Shown here piece after piece: positions 38,371-59,500 of a stretch of DNA of 64,000 nt; the first letter of the stretch is position 1, and each line of letters starts with the position of its first letter. The notes under the pieces are model-generated. The model did not search any database, was not told the origin of the DNA, and saw nothing but the letters and a program-made list of their open reading frames with translations. The position numbers and the translations under genes were made by a program. Location of the stretch: positions 2,168 through 66,167 of the forward strand of contig JBBAFB010000001.1 of assembly GCA_041655595.1 (NCBI GenBank), in the 5' to 3' direction. Source of the DNA: Bacillota bacterium (GTDB lineage: Bacteria > Bacillota > DULZ01).

Positions 38371-38406
38371 AATAAAAAACCAAGCTGATTTAGCCTGGTA
38401 GCTTGG
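38371..38406 (-). terminator. Rho-independent terminator downstream of pilT
   Basis: Minus-strand hairpin CCAAGCT-(13 nt)-AGCTTGG followed by TTTTTTATT. Confidence 0.5.
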
Positions 38407-38613
38407 CGATCCTAGCCCCTACGGCGGGACTTTAGACCCATAGCTTTGCAGTCATCATCTTTCAATGACTTTGCCTTTAACTGCTAAAATTCTTATATCT
38501 TGCATGATATCTAAATCATAGCAATACCTATGTGCTGTCCTATTTTTCTCTTAACTTTAAATTTCGACAGAAAGAGTCCATTCCCTGCAAATATTATTAA
38601 TATTTATTAATTA

Positions 38614-39708
38614 TTATTCCCAATAGCTTGAAGAAGCAAAGGAAGCTCTTTGCATTAATCTATCGAGTTCCACCTTATCCACGGAATGTTCAAGCGCCGT
38701 TTCTCCGGAAATTTTTCCCGAACTGTAAAGTTCGGCTAAAGCTTGATCCATAGTATGCATGCCGCTGCTTTTCGACGTTTGCATGGTATTATAAAGTTGA
38801 TGTTCTTTTCCCTCTCTGATTAAATTTCTAACAGCAGGGGAATCCAGTAAAATCTCCGTCGCCAAAACCCTGCCCGCCCCGTCCTGAGTGGGTAACAATT
38901 GTTGGGAAACCACTGCCTTTAAAGTGTTGGATAACTGCTGCCGCACTTGTTCTCTGCTCTGATCTTGAAAAACATCAATAATGCGGCTGATAGTTAAGGG
39001 GGCTGTTTGTGTATGTAAGGTCGAAAATACCAAGTGACCGGTTTCTGCCGCCGTTAATGCAATAGAGATACTATCCAAATCCCTCATTTCTCCGATGAGA
39101 ATCACATCGGGGTCGTGTCGAAGAACATGGCGCAAAGCATGTGCAAAGGAATGGGTGTCTATACCTACCTCTCTTTGTTTGACGATGGATTTTTGATGTT
39201 TATGCAAAAATTCAATAGGATCTTCTATGGTAACGATGTTTACATGCCTTTCTCTGTTAATTAAATCAACCATTGCAGCTAAGGTAGTAGATTTACCGCT
39301 GCCCGTAGGTCCGGTGATCAAGACTAAACCCCTTGGCAAATAGCACAATTCTTTAATTTGGGCAGGAAGTCCTAATTGATCTATATCAGGAATTTTAAAA
39401 GGCACAATCCTAAAAACAGCCGCTAAACTACCCCTTTGTCTCATGATATTGCCCCTAAACCGTGCAACCCCGGGTAAGGCATAGGATACATCTAATTCTA
39501 ATTTTTCATTAAACTGCTGAAAATCATTTAACAGTGGGGATAAAAATTCTTCCATGCCTTGAGGAGTAAAGGGTGGCGAATCTAAGGCAATCAGCCTACC
39601 TTGCACCCGGATCATCGGAGGAATACCTACGGCAACATGTAGGTCTGAGGCCTGCAGATGGGTAGCCTGTTGTAGCAAAAAATCCAAACTGGGCACAAAA
39701 TCAGACAT
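38614..39708 (-). CDS. pilT: Twitching-motility retraction ATPase PilT
   Basis: 364 aa. Walker A GPTGSGKSTTL, AIRNLIRE-like C-terminal PilT motif (AVRNLIREGK), no N-terminal extension. Confidence 0.85.
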   Translation of the reverse strand: MSDFVPSLDFLLQQATHLQASDLHVAVGIPPMIRVQGRLIALDSPPFTPQGMEEFLSPLLNDFQQFNEKLELDVSYALPGVARFRGNIMRQRGSLAAVFRIVPFKIPDIDQLGLPAQIKELCYLPRGLVLITGPTGSGKSTTLAAMVDLINRERHVNIVTIEDPIEFLHKHQKSIVKQREVGIDTHSFAHALRHVLRHDPDVILIGEMRDLDSISIALTAAETGHLVFSTLHTQTAPLTISRIIDVFQDQSREQVRQQLSNTLKAVVSQQLLPTQDGAGRVLATEILLDSPAVRNLIREGKEHQLYNTMQTSKSSGMHTMDQALAELYSSGKISGETALEHSVDKVELDRLMQRASFASSSYWE

Positions 39709-44348: not shown

Positions 44349-45059
44349 TTGCTGAATTATCTCCTTTTGGGAGCATTGGCTTTATCAATTATAAAAGGCA
44401 TCTCCATGCTGGTTTCCTATATAGGAAATAACGCCTTTCCCCACCCTCTTTCAGAGGAGGAAGAAACAAAATACCTGACCTATCTGCAAGAGGGAGATAC
44501 AGATGCCCGTAATATATTAATAGAACACAATCTACGCTTGGTGGTGCACATTACCAAAAAGTTTGAAGGCACAGGTGAGGATAATGAGGACCTGATTTCC
44601 ATCGGTACCCTGGGATTGATCAAAGCAATTGACACCTTTAAGCCGGACAAAGGTACAAGGTTAGCTACTTATGCCGCCCGTTGCATTGAAAATGAAATTT
44701 TAATGCACTTAAGATATTTAAAAAAAAGTAAAGGTGAGGTATCAATTCACGATCCTATTGGCATAGATAGGGAAGGTAATGAAATTAGTTTAATAGATGT
44801 ATTGGGAACGGATCAAGATATTGTGGCGGATACAGTTGAATCTTTGTACGAACAAGAAAGGGTTTTAAATAAGCTGAATTCTTTAACCGCTAGGGAGAAA
44901 AAGGTAGTGATCTTGAGGTATGGTTTATTTAATAACTTCCGCAAAACCCAAAGGGAGATAGCAAAAAAACTGGGTATCTCCAGGTCGTATGTTTCAAGAA
45001 TTGAAAAAAAGGCTTTGGAAAAATTAATTAAAGAGATCACCGGAGAAAACCACAAATAA
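44349..45059 (+). CDS. sigK: Sporulation sigma factor pro-sigma-K (uninterrupted)
   Basis: 236 aa from a TTG start. [23 protein letters not shown]...[45 protein letters not shown] is near-identical in pattern to B. subtilis SigK including the pro-sequence. C-terminal [15 protein letters not shown] region 4. Confidence 0.88.
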
Positions 45060-45062
45060 ATT

Positions 45063-45761
45063 TTAAAAAATCAAATAAATTAAATAAACACCTAAAGCAA
45101 TAAGAATAATTGCACTAATATTAGTAATGATTTGGCTATATTTTTGAAAACTACCCAGGTTTTTAATGACCCCGGTAAAGGTGCCTGCCACCAGTAAGGG
45201 CAAGCCGTGACCCAAACCATAAAAGAAAAGGGATACACCCCCCAAAACCAGATCTCCTTGACTAGCTAAGTATGTTAAAATGACCGCTAAAACCGGGGTA
45301 GCACAAGGCGAAGCCACCAGCCCAAAAAACAAACCCATAAAAAAGCTGCCGAAAAGACCCCTACCCTTAACAGGCATGGTTTTTAAACCCGGAAAATTGA
45401 TAGTGAAAACTCCTAATAAATTTAACCCCATTAAAATAGCCACTACGGCCATGATAAGGTACCAATAGTTTCCGACCCTTCCGAATATTTGGTTTAAGGA
45501 AGCTGCAAGAATACCTAGGATGGCAAAAGTTACCCCCAACCCTACTACGAACGTTAGGGACATCCAAAAGCCCTTTAAACGGGAACTGCTGCTGTAACCA
45601 CCTACATAACCTACCATCACCGGCAACATGGACAGAATACAGGGGCTAAGACTGGTTACAACCCCTGCCGCGAAAATTATGGGTATGGCAAAGAATAAGT
45701 TGCCGGAGAGGGCTTGGGATGCCATCTGGGTAAAGGTTTCTATCAAGTTTGTTCCCTCCAA
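45063..45761 (-). CDS. ccdA: Cytochrome c-type biogenesis / thiol-disulfide transmembrane electron-transfer protein CcdA (DsbD core)
   Basis: 232 aa, 6 TM, conserved Cys in TM1 (SLSPCILSMLP) and TM4 (ASPCATPVL). Confidence 0.8.
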   Translation of the reverse strand: MEGTNLIETFTQMASQALSGNLFFAIPIIFAAGVVTSLSPCILSMLPVMVGYVGGYSSSSRLKGFWMSLTFVVGLGVTFAILGILAASLNQIFGRVGNYWYLIMAVVAILMGLNLLGVFTINFPGLKTMPVKGRGLFGSFFMGLFFGLVASPCATPVLAVILTYLASQGDLVLGGVSLFFYGLGHGLPLLVAGTFTGVIKNLGSFQKYSQIITNISAIILIALGVYLIYLIF

Positions 45762-45826: not shown

Positions 45827-46243
45827 CTATAACAATTCTATTAAAAGGCTTTCCAATTGATTTTTGGACATTACCCCTGAAAGCATCTGACCGCGCTGCT
45901 GCCCGTCGGCATCAACAAAAACATAGCTGGGAATATACATAACTTTTAATTGCGCCGCCAAATTATAGCCCTCATTATCGGTATCAGCTAAGATAAATTG
46001 AATTTCCGTGCCGTAGGCCTTTTGTAATTCCTCAATAATGGGTTTCATTTTAACGCAGGAAGGGCAGCGATCCGCATAAAACTCAATAAATATAGGCCTG
46101 CCTTCCGCTAAAGCTTGATCAATTTTTTCTTCCGGGTTAATCGTTGCTTCTATAACGGTATTTCTGGCTTTAAGAGCTGGTAAGCCAATGGCTACGACCA
46201 AGGCGAGGCCAATTATAATTGTGATTACTAAATTTTTTTTCAT
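45827..46243 (-). CDS. Membrane-anchored thioredoxin-fold thiol-disulfide oxidoreductase (ResA/TlpA-like)
   Basis: 138 aa. N-terminal TM anchor, Trx fold with CPSC active site (FYADRCPSCVKMKP). 65 nt upstream of ccdA. Confidence 0.75.
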   Translation of the reverse strand: MKKNLVITIIIGLALVVAIGLPALKARNTVIEATINPEEKIDQALAEGRPIFIEFYADRCPSCVKMKPIIEELQKAYGTEIQFILADTDNEGYNLAAQLKVMYIPSYVFVDADGQQRGQMLSGVMSKNQLESLLIELL

Positions 46244-46265: not shown

Positions 46266-46288
46266 GTTCGGTGATTGCTGAGCAATCA
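46266..46288. promoter_or_regulatory. Perfect inverted repeat CGGTGATTGC-tga-GCAATCACCG immediately 5' of the Trx-like gene RBS
   Basis: 10-bp arms, 3-nt spacer, no flanking U-tract, so operator- or attenuator-like rather than a terminator. The half-site CACCGA is repeated once more at 46258-46263. Confidence 0.5.
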
Positions 46289-46369
46289 CCGATAAAAGCT
46301 ACGGATTTTAGTATCATTTTGAAAACCGACTAATAAATATCAAATAGCGACCAAACAATAATCAAGTAA

Positions 46370-46663
46370 CTAGTATAATACAAAACCATCTACCACTAAA
46401 CGTCTGAATTTGGTGGACCCTTTTAATAGTACCTTCAAACCATCGGGGTTTATCGGGTTTCTTTTATCCACATAAACACTTATTCCGGAGATTTCCTGCT
46501 TTTCGAAATCTTCCGCTTCGGCTTTTTCCGGTTTTCCCGCAAACACGGCAGGAATTTTATAAGCGCCCCCTCACCCACGGCTGATTTCAACCAGCAAGGT
46601 TATGGTATCCGTCTTTTCTTTGATGTACTCCAATGCGTCCTCAGCAAAATTTACTTCTACCAA
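46370..46663 (-). CDS. Small ORF (97 codons) with one in-frame UGA at codon 31: candidate selenoprotein, or a very recent nonsense pseudogene
   Basis: Minus-strand TTG start at 46663 (RBS GAAGGTGA). Frame is open for 30 codons (MVEVNFAEDALEYIKEKTDTITLLVEISRG), then TGA at 46571-46573, then 66 more codons in the same frame (GGAYKIPAVFAGKPEKAEAEDFEKQEISGISVYVDKRNPINPDGLKVLLKGSTKFRRLVVDGFVLY) to TAG at 46370. Own promoter upstream, terminator-flanked, not in the ORF track. Confidence 0.35.
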
Positions 46664-46735
46664 TATAATCACCTTCTTTGTTTGTTGTTTTGGAAAATCT
46701 AAAACCGATCCGGAGTCTGCATTAAATTTGTTTCA

Positions 46736-46765
46736 ATTGTACTATATGTGATAATTAGCTGTCAA
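46736..46765 (-). promoter_or_regulatory. Sigma-A-type promoter TTGACA-N18-TACAAT upstream of the UGA-containing small ORF
   Basis: Minus-strand TTGACA at 46760-46765 and TACAAT at 46736-46741, about 70 nt upstream of the TTG start. Confidence 0.45.
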
Positions 46766-46813: not shown

Positions 46814-46846
46814 CAAAAAAAGACCCGCTGTTGAACAACGGGCCCT
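46814..46846 (-). terminator. Rho-independent terminator downstream of the 8-TM membrane protein gene
   Basis: Minus-strand hairpin GGGCCCGTTG-ttcaa-CAGCGGGTC (one mismatch) followed by TTTTTTTGTT. Confidence 0.5.
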
Positions 46847-46865
46847 TTCATTATCAAAAAATACT

Positions 46866-47741
46866 TTAATTGTTTTCTTTAGCTGCTGAACCCAAAGATA
46901 GTAGCGGTCTGCGATCCACTAAGGTGCCGCCGATCTTTGGTGATAACAATAACAGCAAGGTAAAGAGACCGGCGGCAGTTCCTACATAAAATTCTGCCTG
47001 ATAGTAATTTCCCGTTAGAATTGTTCCTGTCCCCACGGCAAATAAAGCATTAGCTATAACGGCCAGCCAGTATCCCTTGACAGTGCGCCCCGCAAGCAAC
47101 GGTATGCTTACCAAGGCCAGGAATACACCCACTATTACTATTGGGGTGCCGATGGCATTGGAATAGCCCATATATCTGGGGTCGGTCATTAATAAACTCC
47201 ATAAGATCCTAAAGGCTCCGTGAAAATTTGCAAAATTCCAGGCGGCGGTTAATCCCAGCGCCATAAATACCACAATGCTGATTGCCTTTTGTTTACCCGA
47301 GGCCTTTTCCAAGAGTAAAATCATCAAAAAAGGTATTAAGCCCAAGGTCATCATTGCCACGGCATTCATGACATAGTCCGTTGCAAATTTTACCATGGGA
47401 CCAATTAAAGCTGCACCTGAAATACAGGGAATAGCTGCCATGCCCAATGCAAAGGGTCTGGCCCAATAATCACCTCTGTTAATCGGACCGGCAAGCAGAA
47501 GTAAGATAACACCGGCAATTATAGAAAGGGCACTCCAAAAAGGATACCAAAAGGTTACCATTTTTGGAGCAGCCACTATAGCCGGGTTACCTGCCTCCGC
47601 AATAAATTTATAAGCATTTAACAAAATTACCCCCTGTGCATTCATGGCTAACTTTGGTATAACAAAAATACAAATTAAACCTCCAACAATGGCAGTAATA
47701 GCCCCTATTTTCCGTTGACCGGCTGTAGTGTTATTAGTCAA
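46866..47741 (-). CDS. Polytopic (about 8 TM) membrane protein of unknown function
   Basis: Hydrophobic throughout. Preferred start is TTG at 47741 with an AGGAGGG RBS 7 nt upstream. The ORF track starts 12 codons earlier at 47777, also TTG, with no RBS. Confidence 0.5.
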   Translation of the reverse strand: MTNNTTAGQRKIGAITAIVGGLICIFVIPKLAMNAQGVILLNAYKFIAEAGNPAIVAAPKMVTFWYPFWSALSIIAGVILLLLAGPINRGDYWARPFALGMAAIPCISGAALIGPMVKFATDYVMNAVAMMTLGLIPFLMILLLEKASGKQKAISIVVFMALGLTAAWNFANFHGAFRILWSLLMTDPRYMGYSNAIGTPIVIVGVFLALVSIPLLAGRTVKGYWLAVIANALFAVGTGTILTGNYYQAEFYVGTAAGLFTLLLLLSPKIGGTLVDRRPLLSLGSAAKENN

Positions 47742-47927
47742 TTGATTTCCCTCCTGTCTTATTATCCAATCAGACAAAAAAGGTTGCTGAAGGGAGGCTG
47801 CTCATTACTTATTCATATTAAATGCATCCCCGAGGGTCCTGCCGGCCCTTCAAAGCCTGAAATAGCCCCGGTGGCATTCCAATAATAAATCAGTTAAAAA
47901 GCATTTCAGCAACCAAAATCATTTCAG

Positions 47928-48698
47928 CTAATTTAGCTTTTCTACGTGGAAAAAACCAGCTAATTTATCTGCATTATCTAACACAAAAGCTGCCCTTTGA
48001 TTCCAAGTTTTTTGCCAACTCTTTAATTGGGATTCGGTTACACTGGGATCGTCAGCCCCGATCTTTGCCTGTAACACTTCTAAATCGGGAGTATTAGGCG
48101 GTTGAGCCAGCATTAAATTATAAATAACTTCAACCTTTGCACCAGTGTCTCTCCTTTCCCAAATCCACTTCATTTGCGGTGGCGGAGTACCCGATGGCGC
48201 ATCGGGATAAATGAGCAAATCCCTTCTATTGTATTTTTCTCCGAAGGAAGACCCCGGGAAGCCCGAGTCGGCAGTGGCCCCTGTTATAAACTCAAAGATA
48301 TCTCCAAAAACCCCCACATACCACTCGTTCGCCGGTCCCGGCGCATGAATGATAATTTGTCCCCTCTCGGGAACCTGCCCATCGGGATACAAAGCCGCCA
48401 GGGCCTTTTTTGTGATACTCCAAGCCCCCGCGGTAGCCGCACAATGGTGGCCGGCAAATTTAACTACCTCTTGATAAAAATAAGGTATGGGCCCATCCAC
48501 TTGTCCCATAATCTCAAGAAATTGATCTCTCATCATAATCGGCTCTTCCTGATTAATTGCGGCTACCTTAAAATAACTGTAGGGTGCCTCTTGGCCGCTG
48601 CCCACTACGGGAGCTTTTGCTTGCGAACTGCAACCTGTAACCGCTAAGGCCAAAACTAACATGCAGGCAAACAGGACTGATAAGCTGTTTCTTTTCAT
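47928..48698 (-). CDS. Lipoprotein of unknown function (possible FmdE-like GHHC motif)
   Basis: MKRNSLSVLFACMLVLALAVTGC lipobox with AAGGAGGGG RBS. The track start at 48743 is 15 codons upstream. Contains FAGHHCAATAGAW, reminiscent of the GH-C-G motif of FmdE-domain proteins. The FmdE assignment is uncertain. Confidence 0.45.
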   Translation of the reverse strand: MKRNSLSVLFACMLVLALAVTGCSSQAKAPVVGSGQEAPYSYFKVAAINQEEPIMMRDQFLEIMGQVDGPIPYFYQEVVKFAGHHCAATAGAWSITKKALAALYPDGQVPERGQIIIHAPGPANEWYVGVFGDIFEFITGATADSGFPGSSFGEKYNRRDLLIYPDAPSGTPPPQMKWIWERRDTGAKVEVIYNLMLAQPPNTPDLEVLQAKIGADDPSVTESQLKSWQKTWNQRAAFVLDNADKLAGFFHVEKLN

Positions 48699-48798
48699 AA
48701 AAAACCCCTCCTTATTAAGTAAACTTTTACTTTTTTTGATCATTTTTTAATTTCACCTCCTTTTTTATAAGCTAAATTTTCATCGCAGCGATGCAATT

Positions 48799-49590
48799 TT
48801 AAATTTTAGATAACAACTCCTCCCCCTTGTTTTGGGGCGGCTTCTTTTTGTCAAACACGCTGACAACTTCGATGGCATTTTTTGTACAACTTTCTACACA
48901 CTGCAGGCAAAAATTACATTCATCATTTCTAACTAAACCAACTTCAAAAAGTTCCGGACATAAAATGTCCATTTGATTATTTTTACATTCTTTTAAGCAT
49001 CTTTTGCACGTAACACATTTGTCCGGGTTTATCTTCAAACGATAGATCTTAAATTTAGCGATTAATCCCAAAAGGGCTCCCACCGGGCATAAATACTTGC
49101 ACCAAAAACGCCTTTCATAGGCCTCGGCCAATAGTAAAAAAAGTAATACCAAAAGCTCAGGGCTTAGAACTAAACCACGGAAACTAACCGCTCTACAAGC
49201 TACCCCTATTGGACAGATCGAGCAAAACACTGCATATCTAAAAATTGCAGCACCCAGTATAATCGCGGCTAACAATCCGTATTTGATATTTCTGCTTTCC
49301 AAGGGCAGCCTTCTGCTTGTTCTCGGAACCAGTTTGCCCCCATGTTCCAGGATTGTTCCTATGGGACAAATCCAGCCGCAAAAGAGTCTGCCGGTTAGGA
49401 TTGTCACGATTATTAATACCAAGGAAGAAACAAGGGCTGCCAGTAAAAATAAACGGGTAGCTGCCATTGTTTGCAAAACTCCCAAGGGACAGGAGACAAA
49501 GATTACTCCCATTTTCAAAGAACAAAATGCTCCCACGGCAAACAGCATTATAAATAAAAAGATCAACTGAACACTGTGTCGAAACTCCAT
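48799..49590 (-). CDS. NapH/MauN-like membrane-bound polyferredoxin (4 TM + 2x[4Fe-4S])
   Basis: Four TM helices with the cytoplasmic motifs CPIGxxxxxxxxxxxxC... and C-terminal CVTCKRCLKECK / CNFCLQCVESC ferredoxin motifs. Start moved to the ATG at 49590 (MEFRHSV), which removes a 95-nt overlap with the upstream gene. Confidence 0.65.
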   Translation of the reverse strand: MEFRHSVQLIFLFIMLFAVGAFCSLKMGVIFVSCPLGVLQTMAATRLFLLAALVSSLVLIIVTILTGRLFCGWICPIGTILEHGGKLVPRTSRRLPLESRNIKYGLLAAIILGAAIFRYAVFCSICPIGVACRAVSFRGLVLSPELLVLLFLLLAEAYERRFWCKYLCPVGALLGLIAKFKIYRLKINPDKCVTCKRCLKECKNNQMDILCPELFEVGLVRNDECNFCLQCVESCTKNAIEVVSVFDKKKPPQNKGEELLSKI

Positions 49591-49594
49591 TTTG

Positions 49595-50218
49595 TCATCT
49601 CCTTGATTGCCTTTTACTTGCATCCAGCCTAAGCTCAAAGGCAGGGCAGGTATAAGCACAAAGCCCGCAACCGTCGCAAACATCTGCAATGATCTTTGGA
49701 AATCTTAATTTTAGATCACCGGAAACTGAAAATCTGCCCGTTTCGAAAATGTGATCCTCATCCTCAATAATGGCTTCCAGTTCACATAAATCAAAACACC
49801 GATCACAAAATTCCCCATTTGAAAGCACACATTTTTCCGGATCAAGATATGCAGTTCCAATTCCCAATTGGTCAAGGGTAGTTCTTTGCAGAACTCGGGT
49901 AGGACAAACAAGAGTACATTCCAGACATCTGGCACAATAATTATCCGGGGAAGCGAAATATGGTAAACCCACATTGCTATAGCCATCCCGCAAGGTCATC
50001 GCCTTTAAAACGCCTGTTTGGTGGTTTCTGCAGACATCAATACAAATTCCGCAGCGAAGGCAGCCGGTAGTAAAAGCTTCCTCATCTATCGCCCCCGGAG
50101 GCCGCAAAACCGGTTCCTCGGCACCGGCAATCTTCTTTTTGGATAAAGCGAAAAAGCCTAAAAAAAATAAAGTTGTGCTACTTGCAAATCGCAAAAATAC
50201 GCGCCTTGAAAAGTCCAT
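49595..50218 (-). CDS. NapG/MauM-like ferredoxin-type protein with Tat-like signal
   Basis: 207 aa. N-term MDFSRRVFLRFASSTTLFFLGFFALS (SRRxFL twin-arginine-like). Four Cys clusters: CLRCGICIDVC, CARCLECTLVCP, CDRCFDLC, CDGCGLCAYTCP. Confidence 0.65.
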   Translation of the reverse strand: MDFSRRVFLRFASSTTLFFLGFFALSKKKIAGAEEPVLRPPGAIDEEAFTTGCLRCGICIDVCRNHQTGVLKAMTLRDGYSNVGLPYFASPDNYCARCLECTLVCPTRVLQRTTLDQLGIGTAYLDPEKCVLSNGEFCDRCFDLCELEAIIEDEDHIFETGRFSVSGDLKLRFPKIIADVCDGCGLCAYTCPAFELRLDASKRQSRR

Positions 50219-50369
50219 TGTTTACTTCCTCCAATAATTAACTCGCCAAGGGAATTAAATGCATACTTCCCGCTTCTAAAAAACCTTGCCGATCAGCTTA
50301 GTGACAATCCGCACAAGCTTTTTGATAGCTTACCTGACCTAAGAGTATGCCAAGACAAAGTCATGGACC

Positions 50370-50383
50370 TTGATCCAGATCAA
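50370..50383. promoter_or_regulatory. Perfect FNR/CRP-type palindrome TTGAT-CCAG-ATCAA in the divergent napG-like / crp-fnr intergenic region
   Basis: 14/14 match to TTGAT-N4-ATCAA. On the minus strand a -10-like CATACT (50344-50349) puts the box centre about 40 nt upstream of the predicted TSS, which is class-II spacing. About 235 nt upstream of the Crp/Fnr gene on the plus side. Confidence 0.6.
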
Positions 50384-50616
50384 GTTGAGTTTAAAAGTTT
50401 TAATAATTATCTGTGCAGTTTGTTTGACTTTACGATCATCAAAAATTATTTCCTAAATCTTGAAATAGATGTTATAATAGTTTTAAGTTTCACAATATAT
50501 TTATCCTCACTTCGGAACTATTATAAAAATTGATTGCTTTGCTTTCTGTGCCGGCTAAAATAGCGATCGAATACTATATTAGCTTGGAAAAATAAGTAGA
50601 GAAACGGAGTGGTATC

Positions 50617-51300
50617 TTGAACAGTGAGCTTGTTTTAAAACTATCCCAATCTGCTGTTTTTAGAAAGGTTAGAAAAAGCGACTTGGAAGCCTTGAGCAAA
50701 CTGGCTATTAAAAAAACGTACCAAGCAAGACAAGTTATCTGTTCCTGTAATGATTTTTTCCCTTATGTTCTGGTGGTGGATCAAGGTTGTGCCCATGCTT
50801 CAATGATTTCCGACAAGGGACAATCTTTAATTGTCCGCTCACTTAAATCCGGTGATACCTTTTGGGGACACGCGGTAATTGATGGAGGACCTACACCGGG
50901 AACTTTAGCGGCCGCGGTGAACGACACCAAAATTTATTTGTGGCACAAAAACCATCTGATACCAATCCTGAAACAAAACCCTGATGCCCTTTGGGAAACA
51001 CTAGAGGTCCTTATGAGAAGGATGAGACAAGCTGCTTCAACTATTGATCAGTTAGCCTTTAATGATGTGTTAACAAGACTTGCTAACCTCATTCTTAACG
51101 AGTACCGTCACGCGGGGGGAGTGGCCAAGCTGCGTCGTTCTTTAACACTCGAGCAGATGGCCGCCATGGTTAACAGTAACCCCGAGGTGGTCTGCCGCCT
51201 GTTGTATCGGATCAGTGAAGAAGAAATCATTGATATTAATAGAAATGAATTGCTTATTCGGGATGTAAAAAAACTACAGGATTTGGCCGGAATCCCCTAA
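50617..51300 (+). CDS. Crp/Fnr-family transcriptional regulator (effector domain + C-terminal HTH)
   Basis: 227 aa, TTG start. cNMP-binding-like beta-barrel (RSLKSGDTFWGHAVIDGGP), C-terminal HTH RSLTLEQMAAMVNSNPEVVCRLLYRI. No N-terminal Cys cluster, so it is not a canonical oxygen-sensing FNR. Confidence 0.85.
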   Translation: MNSELVLKLSQSAVFRKVRKSDLEALSKLAIKKTYQARQVICSCNDFFPYVLVVDQGCAHASMISDKGQSLIVRSLKSGDTFWGHAVIDGGPTPGTLAAAVNDTKIYLWHKNHLIPILKQNPDALWETLEVLMRRMRQAASTIDQLAFNDVLTRLANLILNEYRHAGGVAKLRRSLTLEQMAAMVNSNPEVVCRLLYRISEEEIIDINRNELLIRDVKKLQDLAGIP

Positions 51301-51362: not shown

Positions 51363-51809
51363 TTAAACAAGGCATTGGCTCTTTAGGGAAAATTCCATTG
51401 AGCAACCCTCATCAGTAGGTTTTACATCCACAAACCAGACATTACAAGCCAACCCTCGACTGAGAGTAAACATCAAGAAAGGATCAATGGGACATAGACT
51501 GTAACCGTTCTTTTTTTTACAACTGCCGTTAGCTTCTTTTAATTGACAACCCTTAATATTTACCAAAATATCACTACTATCAATTATATTTAGCTCTAGG
51601 TTTTGGCAAAAGGGAAATTCCTTTAAAAATGCCTCGTTTAATAAGGCACTTATTTCTTCGTAAGACAAAGGAACCCCGAGCTCTTCCTCAAACAGCTCCT
51701 CTGTTAAGACCCAGGCCATTTTTGCCCTGATATTGTCTATTTCCTTACCCGTTGCACAACCTAGAACCTTTAAATATTTATCCATCAATACCCTTTCTCG
51801 CCCTTCCAT
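51363..51809 (-). CDS. Cys-rich small cytoplasmic protein, unknown function (possibly V4R-like)
   Basis: 148 aa, 7 Cys. No strong motif recognised by eye. The V4R assignment is speculative. Confidence 0.3.
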   Translation of the reverse strand: MEGRERVLMDKYLKVLGCATGKEIDNIRAKMAWVLTEELFEEELGVPLSYEEISALLNEAFLKEFPFCQNLELNIIDSSDILVNIKGCQLKEANGSCKKKNGYSLCPIDPFLMFTLSRGLACNVWFVDVKPTDEGCSMEFSLKSQCLV

Positions 51810-58438: not shown

Positions 58439-59500
58439 TTATCCTTCATCTACTTTCGACTCCTTTTTAAACCAAACCGGTATTACCAATTGCAGCCAAA
58501 AAACGCGTAGAATTAAAATCATTGGAATTGCAAGTAAAAGACCTATAATCCCAAAAATTTTCCCACCCAAAAATAGTGCCAAAATCACTAACAGCGGATG
58601 AAGTCCTATCCTGGAACCGATAATTCTGGGTGTTAAAATATTGCTTTCTAGTTGTTGAATGGTTACCATTAGTACCAAGGCGTAAAGGGCTTTAATTTTT
58701 GAATCAAGTAGGGCAATGCCCAGAGCAGGTATTGCACCTATCACGGGACCGAAGTAGGGAATGATTTCTGTTATGCCCACAATCAGGCCCAATAAAAAAG
58801 GAAAATCTAAATTTATGATTAAAAAGCCTATTGACGTACCAATTCCAACTAAAACCGCTACCAATAAGTGCCCTTTTATGAAACAGTTTAACTGCACATC
58901 AATTTCCCGCCAAAGTTTTACCAGTTTTTCCGCCCAATTAACGGGGAAAAAACTTAGAAACCTTTCGGAAATAAGTTTTTGGTCCCTTAAGACGTAATAA
59001 GCCAGCACGGGGGCTATAATGATACTGAGGGCGTGGGTAAAGACAGAGATGATACCGTTAACTACCTGGGCAATTGCTCCTATTACAATTAATTCAAGCT
59101 GCAATAAAGCCAAATCTATTTGGTTTCTCAAGGCATTCGGTATGGCAATTTTTTTATAATTATCATTAAAGTTTTGGAAAAAGGACTGTAACCGGTGAGT
59201 ATATTGGGGAATAGACATGGCGAGCACTTCAAGCTGCCGCCAAAAAATCGGCAGCACAAAACAGGAGAACAATATAATGGCGGTTATAAAGAAAAAATAC
59301 GTTAAAAAAATACCGCCCACCCTAGAAAAACCCTTTGCTTCCCAGAGTTTCACAATGGGGTTTAAAAGATATGCCAAAACAAAGGCTAACAAAAAGGGTA
59401 AAAATACCCCCCCCACCCAGTATATAAGCAGCAATAAAGCTAAAAGCAAAAGGATGATCTGAGCAATACGTTTTACCTTGGCAACTAACTCGTTGGTCAT
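58439..59500 (-). CDS. AI-2E family transporter (UPF0118, PerM/YtvI-like)
   Basis: 353 aa, 8 TM with the characteristic long loop. ...IPYFGPVIGAIPA... motif. Confidence 0.8.
   Translation of the reverse strand: MTNELVAKVKRIAQIILLLLALLLLIYWVGGVFLPFLLAFVLAYLLNPIVKLWEAKGFSRVGGIFLTYFFFITAIILFSCFVLPIFWRQLEVLAMSIPQYTHRLQSFFQNFNDNYKKIAIPNALRNQIDLALLQLELIVIGAIAQVVNGIISVFTHALSIIIAPVLAYYVLRDQKLISERFLSFFPVNWAEKLVKLWREIDVQLNCFIKGHLLVAVLVGIGTSIGFLIINLDFPFLLGLIVGITEIIPYFGPVIGAIPALGIALLDSKIKALYALVLMVTIQQLESNILTPRIIGSRIGLHPLLVILALFLGGKIFGIIGLLLAIPMILILRVFWLQLVIPVWFKKESKVDEG

What the first reader, a model, noticed from the sequence alone, without database searches (positions are those of the whole stretch)
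46370..46663. Promoter- and terminator-bounded small ORF with a single in-frame UGA (candidate selenoprotein) upstream of the Trx-like and ccdA genes
On the minus strand a 97-codon frame runs from TTG (46663, RBS GAAGGTGA) to TAG (46370). It is interrupted only by TGA at codon 31 (…LLVEISRG-UGA-GGAYKIPAVFAGKPEK…). The 66 codons after the UGA stay open in this roughly 40% GC DNA and read like protein, which is unlikely for non-coding sequence. A consensus-like sigma-A promoter (TTGACA-N18-TACAAT at 46736-46765) lies upstream and an intrinsic terminator (46814-46846) insulates it from the upstream gene. Beginning 16 nt after the UGA there is a 7-bp stem-loop (UUCCUGC-cguguuu-GCGGGAA), in the position where bacterial SECIS elements lie. 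It sits next to a CxxC thioredoxin-fold protein and CcdA. Small redox selenoproteins, including Sec versions of thiol-disulfide carriers, are common in anaerobic Clostridia and Deltaproteobacteria. I could not assign a family, and the single residue could equally be Cys in homologs.
Basis: seen in the sequence. Interest (0 to 1): 0.7.

Follow-up and report, generated by a model that had tools for sequence, protein, structure and literature searches.

The report
Small selenoprotein gene, known CC/Se family

Summary
The minus-strand frame 46663..46370 has one in-frame TGA (46573..46571), followed 16 nt later by a 7-bp hairpin (46554..46534).

With Sec written as Cys, the product matches NCBIfam NF041239, "CC/Se motif family (seleno)protein", end to end: 80 bits against a cutoff of 40. 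Pfam has the same family as PF28096. A 2026 review lists it as a selenoprotein of unknown function.

Thirteen reconstructed homologous genes (36-88% identity) all keep TGA at this codon. Both halves are under purifying selection. TGA is a normal stop elsewhere in the window.

The hairpin meets the published bacterial SECIS criteria. It shows compensatory changes, and its loop is frozen at synonymous sites.

Beyond the catalogue entry:
- The window's clade has no cysteine at all, so the name-giving Cys/Sec pair is absent.
- No Cys-for-Sec homolog was found.

Linkage to the Trx-like and CcdA genes holds only in close relatives. The Sec machinery could not be checked, because the window is a metagenome fragment. 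Function remains inferred. Interest is low to moderate.

The parts
46736..46765 (-). Sigma-70-type promoter-like site, TTGACA-N18-TACAAT
   Evidence: Consensus scan gives 11 of 12 matches. Function is inferred, not shown.
46669..46676 (-). Ribosome-binding site GAAGGTGA, 5 nt upstream of the TTG start
   Evidence: Read directly from the sequence.
46370..46663 (-). Selenoprotein coding sequence: 97 codons plus TAG stop. Member of the CC/Se motif family (NF041239 / PF28096).
   Evidence: Translation. NCBIfam E = 9.9e-23, 80.1 bits against a cutoff of 40, profile positions 2-90 of 91. Thirteen homologous genes share the same architecture. dN/dS is 0.12 and 0.05 on the two sides of the TGA.
46571..46573 (-). 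In-frame TGA, the inferred selenocysteine codon (codon 31)
   Evidence: TGA sits at the aligned codon in all 13 reconstructed homologs. TGA also ends 11 of 58 long ORFs in the window, so it is not a reassigned codon.
46534..46554 (-). SECIS-like hairpin: 7-bp stem UUCCUGC/GCGGGAA and loop CGUGUUU. It begins 16 nt after the UGA, and the loop begins after 23 nt.
   Evidence: Folding energy is -7.9 kcal/mol. It meets the four bSECIS criteria quoted in PMC13188914. 90.1% of cells are paired, three pairs change on both sides, and slid controls give 26-44%. Third-codon positions in the loop are invariant in 12 of 12 sequences.
46817..46849 (-). Terminator-like hairpin with a T-run, ending the upstream 303-aa membrane-protein gene
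   Evidence: Consensus scan finds 15 pairs followed by TTTTT.
45827..46243 (-). Downstream gene for a membrane-anchored thioredoxin-like protein with a CPSC motif, probably co-transcribed
   Evidence: Sub-threshold thioredoxin-family matches. It is 51% identical to the gene at the same position in L005. No terminator-like site lies between it and the selenoprotein gene.
45063..45761 (-). Downstream gene for a CcdA/DsbD-type transmembrane thiol-disulfide electron transporter
   Evidence: It matches the DsbD transmembrane region. The orthologous gene in L001 and L008 carries Pfam DsbD_TM.

Best explanation
This is a real gene for a 97-residue cytoplasmic selenoprotein. During translation, the UGA at codon 31 is read as selenocysteine. 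The hairpin 16 nt downstream, with its conserved CGUG loop, acts as a bacterial SECIS element that recruits SelB carrying Sec-tRNA(Sec).

The protein belongs to the catalogued CC/Se motif family (NCBIfam NF041239, Pfam PF28096). It adopts the IscA/HesB (A-type iron-sulfur carrier) fold. The Sec sits at the tip of a beta-hairpin, at the position that appears equivalent to IscA ligand Cys35. The C-terminal Cys-x-Cys that IscA needs to hold a cluster is missing.

The gene, the recoded codon, the RNA element and the fold are shown or strongly supported. The biochemical role is inferred. The exposed Sec is most likely a reactive redox or relay centre. This clade has no cysteine at all, so the Sec would have to act through an intermolecular Se-S or Se-Se bond, with a partner protein or across a dimer, and not through an internal selenenylsulfide. 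The neighbouring CcdA and Trx-like pair is a possible partner system.

The confidence of 0.88 applies to the identity and the decoding mechanism. I would put only about 0.3 on the functional inference.
For: - Family: full-length match to NF041239, 80.1 bits against a cutoff of 40. All 12 reconstructed full-length relatives also match. Database fragments carry PF28096 CC_Se_fam.
- Catalogue: the family is listed as a selenoprotein in PMC13188914.
- Conserved TGA: it is kept at the aligned codon in 13 of 13 homologous genes of 36-88% identity from different metagenomes and MAGs. Three database proteins that show W at this site are TGA in the DNA or have the same context.
- Coding on both sides: dN/dS is 0.12 before and 0.05 after the TGA against L004. 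In more distant pairs pN is 0.2-0.3 on both sides while synonymous sites are saturated.
- TGA is a normal stop in this organism, ending 11 of 58 long ORFs.
- Hairpin: it meets all four bSECIS criteria. 90.1% of cells are paired against 82.5% in shuffles (1 of 500), three pairs change on both sides, and slid controls give 26-44%.
- RNA-level constraint: in the loop, Val40 is GTG in 12 of 12 and the third base of codon 39 is C in 12 of 12. Other invariant four-fold residues show 1.3-1.9 bits of third-base entropy.
- Remote sequence links: 9 of 12 members give weak PF01521 hits, and 2 of 12 hit NF038090 IscA_HesB_Se at 3.6e-6.
- Sec position: hhalign places Sec on IscA Cys35.
Against: - No selA, selB, selD or tRNA-Sec lies in the 64-kb window, and the rest of the genome is not available. 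The organism's ability to make Sec is therefore inferred from relatives. The closest homolog locus is from an uncultured Moorellales MAG, and Moorella thermoacetica is a known Sec user.
- The hairpin overlaps the conserved peptide P-A-V-[FY]-A-G, which by itself encodes four of the seven pairs. Its energy is no better than shuffles.
- No Rfam SECIS model matches.
- The alignment of Sec to IscA Cys35 is weak at sequence level (hhalign probability 12%), and I could not inspect the structural superposition.
- The structure model is of a homolog with Trp in place of Sec, not of the window protein itself.
- Linkage to the Trx-like and CcdA genes sits inside a larger block of conserved housekeeping gene order. 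It is absent in the more distant members, so it is weak evidence for a functional link.
Confidence: 0.88

Rival explanations
1. Two separate small genes. A 30-codon upstream ORF ends at the UGA, and an independent 58-residue protein starts at the GTG at 46546. Automatic gene callers annotate the locus this way.
For: Database entries P0001, P0002, P0004-P0010 and P0013-P0025 are all called as 52-61-residue proteins that start just after the UGA.
Against: - The eight codons between the TGA and the GTG are conserved as protein, with no nonsynonymous change against L004 and dN/dS of 0.08-0.19 in three of the four other calculable pairs.
- The internal start is GTG, ATG or absent at varying positions in homologs.
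- The frame is continuous across the TGA in 13 of 13 genes.
- The NF041239 profile and the IscA-fold model both need the two halves as one domain.
Confidence: 0.04
2. UGA is read through as a standard amino acid (Trp, Gly or Cys), either by a reassigned genetic code or by near-cognate suppression, without selenocysteine.
For: Three homologs are stored in databases with W at this site. The Sec machinery could not be found in the window.
Against: - TGA terminates 11 of 58 long ORFs in the window, and no other gene is split by TGA.
- The W calls come from TGA read under an alternative code on short contigs of about 0.5-1.3 kb.
- A conserved hairpin with a GU-containing loop at SECIS distance, and frozen synonymous sites, are not expected for simple read-through.
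- The family is curated as a selenoprotein family.
Confidence: 0.05
3. A pseudogene: a once-intact gene inactivated by a nonsense mutation.
For: A single premature stop codon is what a recent nonsense mutation looks like in one sequence.
Against: - The same TGA is present in every homolog down to 36% identity.
- The part downstream of the stop is under strong purifying selection (dN/dS 0.05).
- No homolog with a sense codon at this site was found in two large searches.
Confidence: 0.01

Closest known systems
CC/Se motif family (seleno)protein: NCBIfam NF041239 'Moor_selen_rel', Pfam PF28096 CC_Se_fam. [quoted passage not shown]
   Same: The HMM match is full-length at twice the cutoff. The length is the same at about 91-97 residues. 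Sec is at the same conserved position, and the P-A-V-x-A-G-K-P and C-terminal motifs are the same. Function is unknown in both.
   Different: The window protein and its clade (L004/L001, L002, L005, P0011, P0012) contain no cysteine at all. The pairing of Sec with a nearby Cys is therefore missing. Other members have it as U-C, C-x-x-U or U-x-x-x-C.
HesB-like selenoprotein (NCBIfam TIGR01911, motif UxGP) and IscA/HesB family selenoprotein model NF038090
   Same: Both are small proteins of about 90-100 residues with an IscA/HesB fold, and Sec stands at the position of the first conserved Cys. Some CC/Se members read G-U-C-G-P, which fits UxGP. Two of 12 relatives reach NF038090 at 3.6e-6 and TIGR01911 at 0.011.
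   Different: The window protein does not hit either model at E <= 1. It belongs to a separate curated family.
A-type iron-sulfur carriers IscA / SufA / ErpA (Pfam PF01521; PDB 1r94, 1x0g, 2d2a)
   Different: The protein lacks the C-terminal C-x-C (Cys99 and Cys101 of E. coli IscA) needed for cluster binding. The Pfam score is below the gathering threshold, 13.5 against 26.3. Identity is only 16-20%.
Cys-poor IscA-fold proteins: DsrR of Allochromatium vinosum (2k4z) and YneR of Bacillus subtilis (9a4q_B)
   Same: They are short IscA-fold proteins without the three-Cys cluster site, and both appear among the structural matches. From general knowledge, they act through protein-protein contacts and not as cluster carriers.
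   Different: No sequence similarity was detectable, and neither is a selenoprotein.

Membership tests
CC/Se motif family (seleno)protein (NF041239 / PF28096) | Score above the curated whole-protein cutoff of the family HMM, over the full profile | tested here: met
   80.1 bits against a cutoff of 40, profile positions 2-90 of 91. The C-terminal fragments of the same gene carry PF28096 in the database.
CC/Se motif family (seleno)protein (NF041239 / PF28096) | Sec (or Cys) at the conserved position after the third strand, in the context G-[U/C]-x-G | tested here: met
   TGA at codon 31 aligns with TGA in all 12 other reconstructed genes.
CC/Se motif family (seleno)protein (NF041239 / PF28096) | The name-giving pairing of that residue with a nearby Cys (CC or C/Sec dyad; CxxU in PMC13188914) | tested here: not met
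   The window protein has no Cys anywhere. The same holds for L004, L002, L005, P0011 and P0012. Other HMM-positive members have U-C, C-x-x-U or U-x-x-x-C. The motif is therefore not universal among sequences that pass the HMM. I could not read the curators' own definition.
Bacterial selenoprotein gene (SelB/SECIS-dependent UGA recoding) | In-frame UGA conserved among homologs, with coding constraint on both sides | tested here: met
   13 of 13 genes keep the TGA. dN/dS is 0.12 and 0.05.
Bacterial selenoprotein gene (SelB/SECIS-dependent UGA recoding) | bSECIS model: apical loop of 3-9 nt, upper stem of 4-16 bp, G in the first two loop positions, 16-37 nt from UGA to loop, MFE <= -7.5 kcal/mol (PMC13188914, Fig. 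2) | tested here: met
   The loop CGUGUUU is 7 nt with G at position 2 followed by U. The stem is 7 bp, the spacing is 23 nt and the energy is -7.9 kcal/mol. Covariation and frozen synonymous sites support it.
Bacterial selenoprotein gene (SelB/SECIS-dependent UGA recoding) | selA, selB, selD and tRNA-Sec present in the genome | not testable with these tools
   The window has no tRNA, and none of the ten size-matched ORFs is SelA, SelB or SelD. The source is a metagenome contig of about 70 kb that could not be retrieved.
Bacterial selenoprotein gene (SelB/SECIS-dependent UGA recoding) | Selenium actually incorporated at the UGA position | not testable with these tools
   This needs 75Se labelling or mass spectrometry.
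A-type Fe-S carrier, IscA/HesB (Pfam PF01521) | IscA/HesB fold | tested here: met
A-type Fe-S carrier, IscA/HesB (Pfam PF01521) | Pfam gathering score reached | tested here: not met
   13.5 bits against 26.3. 9 of 12 relatives give only weak hits, the best at 8.8e-5.
A-type Fe-S carrier, IscA/HesB (Pfam PF01521) | Three conserved Cys ligands: Cys35 plus the C-terminal C-x-C | tested here: not met
   Only the first position is occupied, by Sec. The protein ends without any Cys.
HesB-like selenoprotein (TIGR01911) | Match to the family HMM | tested here: not met
   The window protein gives no hit at E <= 1. Two relatives reach only 0.011.
   No thioredoxin-fold protein appears among the structural matches. 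No Trx family hit was found. There is no Cys to form the motif.

The most novel reading that the evidence does not exclude
The Cys-free clade may be a mechanistically distinct single-Sec branch of an apparently obligate selenoprotein family, since no Cys-for-Sec homolog turned up in two very large searches. In this reading, an IscA-fold scaffold presents a lone Sec that works only through intermolecular Se-S or Se-Se chemistry. It could, for example, be the cytoplasmic partner feeding or sensing the adjacent CcdA and Trx-like electron-transfer pair near sigK in spore formers. Alternatively it could be a selenium, sulfur or metal relay across a dimer interface. That would be a new use of the A-type carrier fold.
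Probability: 0.2. Interest if true: 0.55.

Novelty: new variant of a known kind. Interest (0 to 1): 0.3.

Why it matters
For genome annotation, this is a textbook case of a selenoprotein gene that standard gene callers break. In public databases it exists only as a 58-residue fragment (P0001). Relatives appear as fragments, or as full-length proteins with a false Trp at the Sec position. The family itself is already catalogued, so the gene is not a discovery.

Three modest points might interest a selenoprotein specialist:
- The family has the IscA/HesB fold, with Sec at what appears to be the cluster-ligand position and without the other ligands.
- The cysteine that gives the family its name shifts position among members and is absent from a whole clade, including this gene. 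That constrains possible mechanisms.
- The family has one strongly conserved SECIS hairpin embedded in, and probably shaping, the conserved peptide P-A-V-F-A-G-K-P.

None of this settles the function.

Tried and rejected
- **Hairpin stability alone.** It is not better than shuffles (z = +0.61), so I rejected it as evidence and replaced it with covariation and synonymous-site tests.
- **Rfam.** No match at gathering thresholds over the whole window or permissively over 46440-46640. This is uninformative, because Rfam's bacterial SECIS models are family-specific.
- **Word-indexed protein search.** With the full product it returned only two C-terminal fragments.
- **Exhaustive search.** It would not accept the Sec-to-Cys sequence or a reference containing a stop, so it ran on the 66 residues after the UGA.
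- **Source contig.** The look-up of P0001 failed, so the source contig and the Sec machinery could not be examined.
- **Locus scans.** The tighter alignment gave only two loci each in genomes and metagenomes.
- **PDB.** The sequence search found nothing relevant.
- **AFDB.** The afdb50 library was unavailable.
- **Other Sec genes.** A scan for other TGA-split genes in the window found none.
- **Literature.** The main texts of the review's references 61 and 62 do not mention Moorella.
- **Intergenic palindrome.** The palindrome at 46292-46268 is not conserved in relatives and is not part of the system.
- **Rival readings.** Pseudogene, two-gene and reassigned-code readings were considered and rejected; see the rival explanations.

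Full report
**Observation.** On the minus strand, a TTG at 46663 is preceded by GAAGGTGA at 46676-46669. It opens a 97-codon frame that ends with TAG at 46372-46370 and is interrupted only by TGA at 46573-46571. The promoter-like site at 46765-46736 (TTGACA-N18-TACAAT, 11 of 12) and the terminator-like hairpin at 46849-46817 are both found by the consensus scan. The hairpin UUCCUGC-CGUGUUU-GCGGGAA lies at 46554-46534, 16 nt after the TGA.

**Family.** With Sec written as Cys, the product matches NCBIfam NF041239, "CC/Se motif family (seleno)protein" (short name Moor_selen_rel). The E-value is 9.9e-23 and the score 80.1 bits against a curated cutoff of 40, over positions 2-90 of the 91-position profile. 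The local Pfam copy gives only a weak Fe-S_biosyn hit. The database fragments of this gene, however, carry the newer Pfam family PF28096, CC_Se_fam. [quoted passage not shown] It is the only paper in the searchable library that names the family. The family is therefore known and its function is not.

**Is the TGA really decoded?**
- An exhaustive HMMER search with the 66 residues after the TGA found only eight cluster representatives in 1.84 billion. A profile search found 20 in 5.8 billion.
- Nearly all hits are fragments of 52-61 residues that start just after the TGA position. The three full-length ones (P0003, P0011, P0012) show Trp there. For P0003, the DNA has TGA at that codon.
- I rebuilt the full frames from the DNA of 13 distinct homologous genes of 36-88% identity. 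They come from an uncultured Moorellales MAG, a Clostridia MAG and several metagenomes. All 13 have TGA at the aligned codon, with conserved protein on both sides.
- Against the closest relative, dN/dS is 0.12 before the TGA and 0.05 after it. In more distant pairs the synonymous sites are saturated while pN stays at 0.2-0.3 on both sides.
- TGA is an ordinary stop in this organism, ending 11 of 58 long ORFs. No other gene in the window is split by a TGA.
- These results exclude a pseudogene, a pair of separate small genes and a reassigned code. No homolog with Cys in place of Sec was found.

**The RNA element.**
- Alone, the hairpin region folds no better than shuffled sequence (z = +0.61). 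It also overlaps the conserved peptide P-A-V-[FY]-A-G, whose codons (CCN GCN ... GCN GGN) by themselves encode four of the pairs.
- The informative positions are the free ones. On a TGA-anchored alignment of 13 sequences, 90.1% of cells pair, a value reached by 1 of 500 shuffles. Three of the seven pairs change on both sides (U-A to G-C, U-A to C-G or G-C, G-C to A-U). Sliding the 3' arm by 1-3 nt drops pairing to 26-44%.
- At synonymous sites, Val40 is GTG in 12 of 12 and the third base of codon 39 is C in 12 of 12. Other invariant four-fold residues (A10, G43, P45, G60, L80, G82, G93) show 1.3-1.9 bits of third-base entropy. The loop CGUG is therefore constrained as RNA.
- The element meets the four criteria of the published bacterial SECIS model (PMC13188914 Fig. 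2). The loop is 7 nt, the stem is 7 bp, G is at loop position 2 and is followed by U, the UGA-to-loop distance is 23 nt, and the energy is -7.9 kcal/mol.
- Rfam has no matching model.

**The protein.**
- An AlphaFold2 model of P0011, a Cys-free relative 54% identical to the window protein, has pLDDT 91.2.
- At sequence level, 9 of 12 members give weak PF01521 hits. Two reach NCBIfam's IscA/HesB selenoprotein models.
- A profile alignment to E. coli IscA is weak (probability 12%). I wrote the IscA sequence from memory and verified it against PDB 1s98. The alignment places Sec ("SRG-U-GG") on the cluster-ligand Cys35 ("TSG-C-SG").
- The C-terminal C-x-C of IscA is absent. The family is thus a distant IscA/HesB branch that keeps only the first ligand position, as Sec.

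**A variant within the family.** Across HMM-positive members, the cysteine that should pair with Sec moves:
- U-C in L012, L018, L018b and L021
- C-x-x-U in L015 and L020
- U-x-x-x-C in L007, L008 and L011
- absent in the window protein, L004/L001, L002, L005, P0011 and P0012

This last group contains no cysteine at all. An internal selenenylsulfide is therefore impossible in this clade.

**Context.**
- The gene is followed by a membrane-anchored thioredoxin-like protein with CPSC (46243-45827) and a CcdA/DsbD-type transporter (45761-45063). Next come convergent sigK and then yqeG. No terminator-like site separates the first three genes, so one operon is likely but not shown.
- The same order is kept in L001, L004, L005, L007 and L008-L010. 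It is part of a larger conserved block: RuvX, DUF1292, MltG, peptidase U32, a 150-aa ORF, CC_Se, Trx, CcdA, SigK, YqeG.
- The linkage is absent from the more distant members, whose neighbours are PTPS, YlmH, HutP or methyltransferase genes. Linkage is therefore weak evidence for a shared function.
- Relative to L005 and L008, the window carries an extra stretch of about 4.4 kb (46866-51300) between the 150-aa ORF and the selenoprotein gene.

**Limits.** No tRNA and no SelA, SelB or SelD are in the window. The source contig could not be retrieved. The ability to decode Sec is inferred from the Moorellales affinity of the closest homolog and from Moorella thermoacetica being a known Sec user.

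**Verdict.** This is a genuine selenoprotein gene with a well-supported SECIS, in a family that NCBI's pipeline would name automatically. The fold assignment, the Cys-free clade and the apparent lack of Cys homologs are modest additions.

Noticed in passing
window 38394-38485 (-): A c-di-GMP-I riboswitch (Rfam RF01051, 65.8 bits, full length) lies just upstream of the 182-aa ORF at 38383-37835. That ORF heads a long minus-strand gene run and sits next to a PilT-family ATPase gene at 38614-39708.
   Followed up: no
window 46866-51300: The window has about 4.4 kb of extra sequence compared with relatives L005 and L008, where the 150-aa ORF directly precedes the selenoprotein gene. It holds a Crp/Fnr-like regulator (50617-51300, +), NapG-like and NapH-like ferredoxins (49595-50218 and 48799-49689), a 271-aa ORF (47928-48743) and a 303-aa membrane protein (46866-47777). 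The last two have no NCBIfam match.
   Followed up: partly
window 46268-46292 (-): A perfect 10-bp palindrome, TCGGTGATTG-CTCAG-CAATCACCGA, lies between the selenoprotein stop and the Trx-like start and has no U-tract. A second copy of CACCGA abuts the Trx RBS. The palindrome is not conserved in L001, L004, L005 or L008.
   Followed up: partly
window 51363-51809 (-); L005 5417-5875; L007 322-777; L008 3292-3741: A conserved ORF of about 150 aa with several conserved Cys (FPFC...C...LCP...GC) has no Pfam hit on record in relatives. It always lies just upstream of the CC_Se gene in the close relatives. The window copy is 42% identical to the one in L005.
   Followed up: partly
L018 3884-4165 and 4399-4680; L019 likewise: Two CC/Se family genes sit in tandem, each with its own in-frame TGA (U-C type). 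The second copy has a 3-nt shorter spacer and a hairpin with a compensatory G-C to A-U change.
   Followed up: partly
P0003 (L002 563-847, L003 73-357), P0011, P0012: Public protein databases hold full-length family members with Trp at the Sec position. For P0003, the DNA has TGA there. On short contigs the gene caller evidently chose a code in which TGA is a sense codon.
   Followed up: yes
L012-L014, L018-L019: In the U-C type members, the gene immediately upstream is always a PTPS (6-pyruvoyl-tetrahydropterin synthase/QueD-like) gene. This is a different conserved neighbourhood from the Trx/CcdA one.
   Followed up: no
window 44349-45059 (+): The sporulation sigma factor SigK gene is intact (236 aa, 364 bits) and converges on ccdA. 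Together with YtvI (58439-59500), it marks the source as an endospore-forming Firmicute.
   Followed up: no
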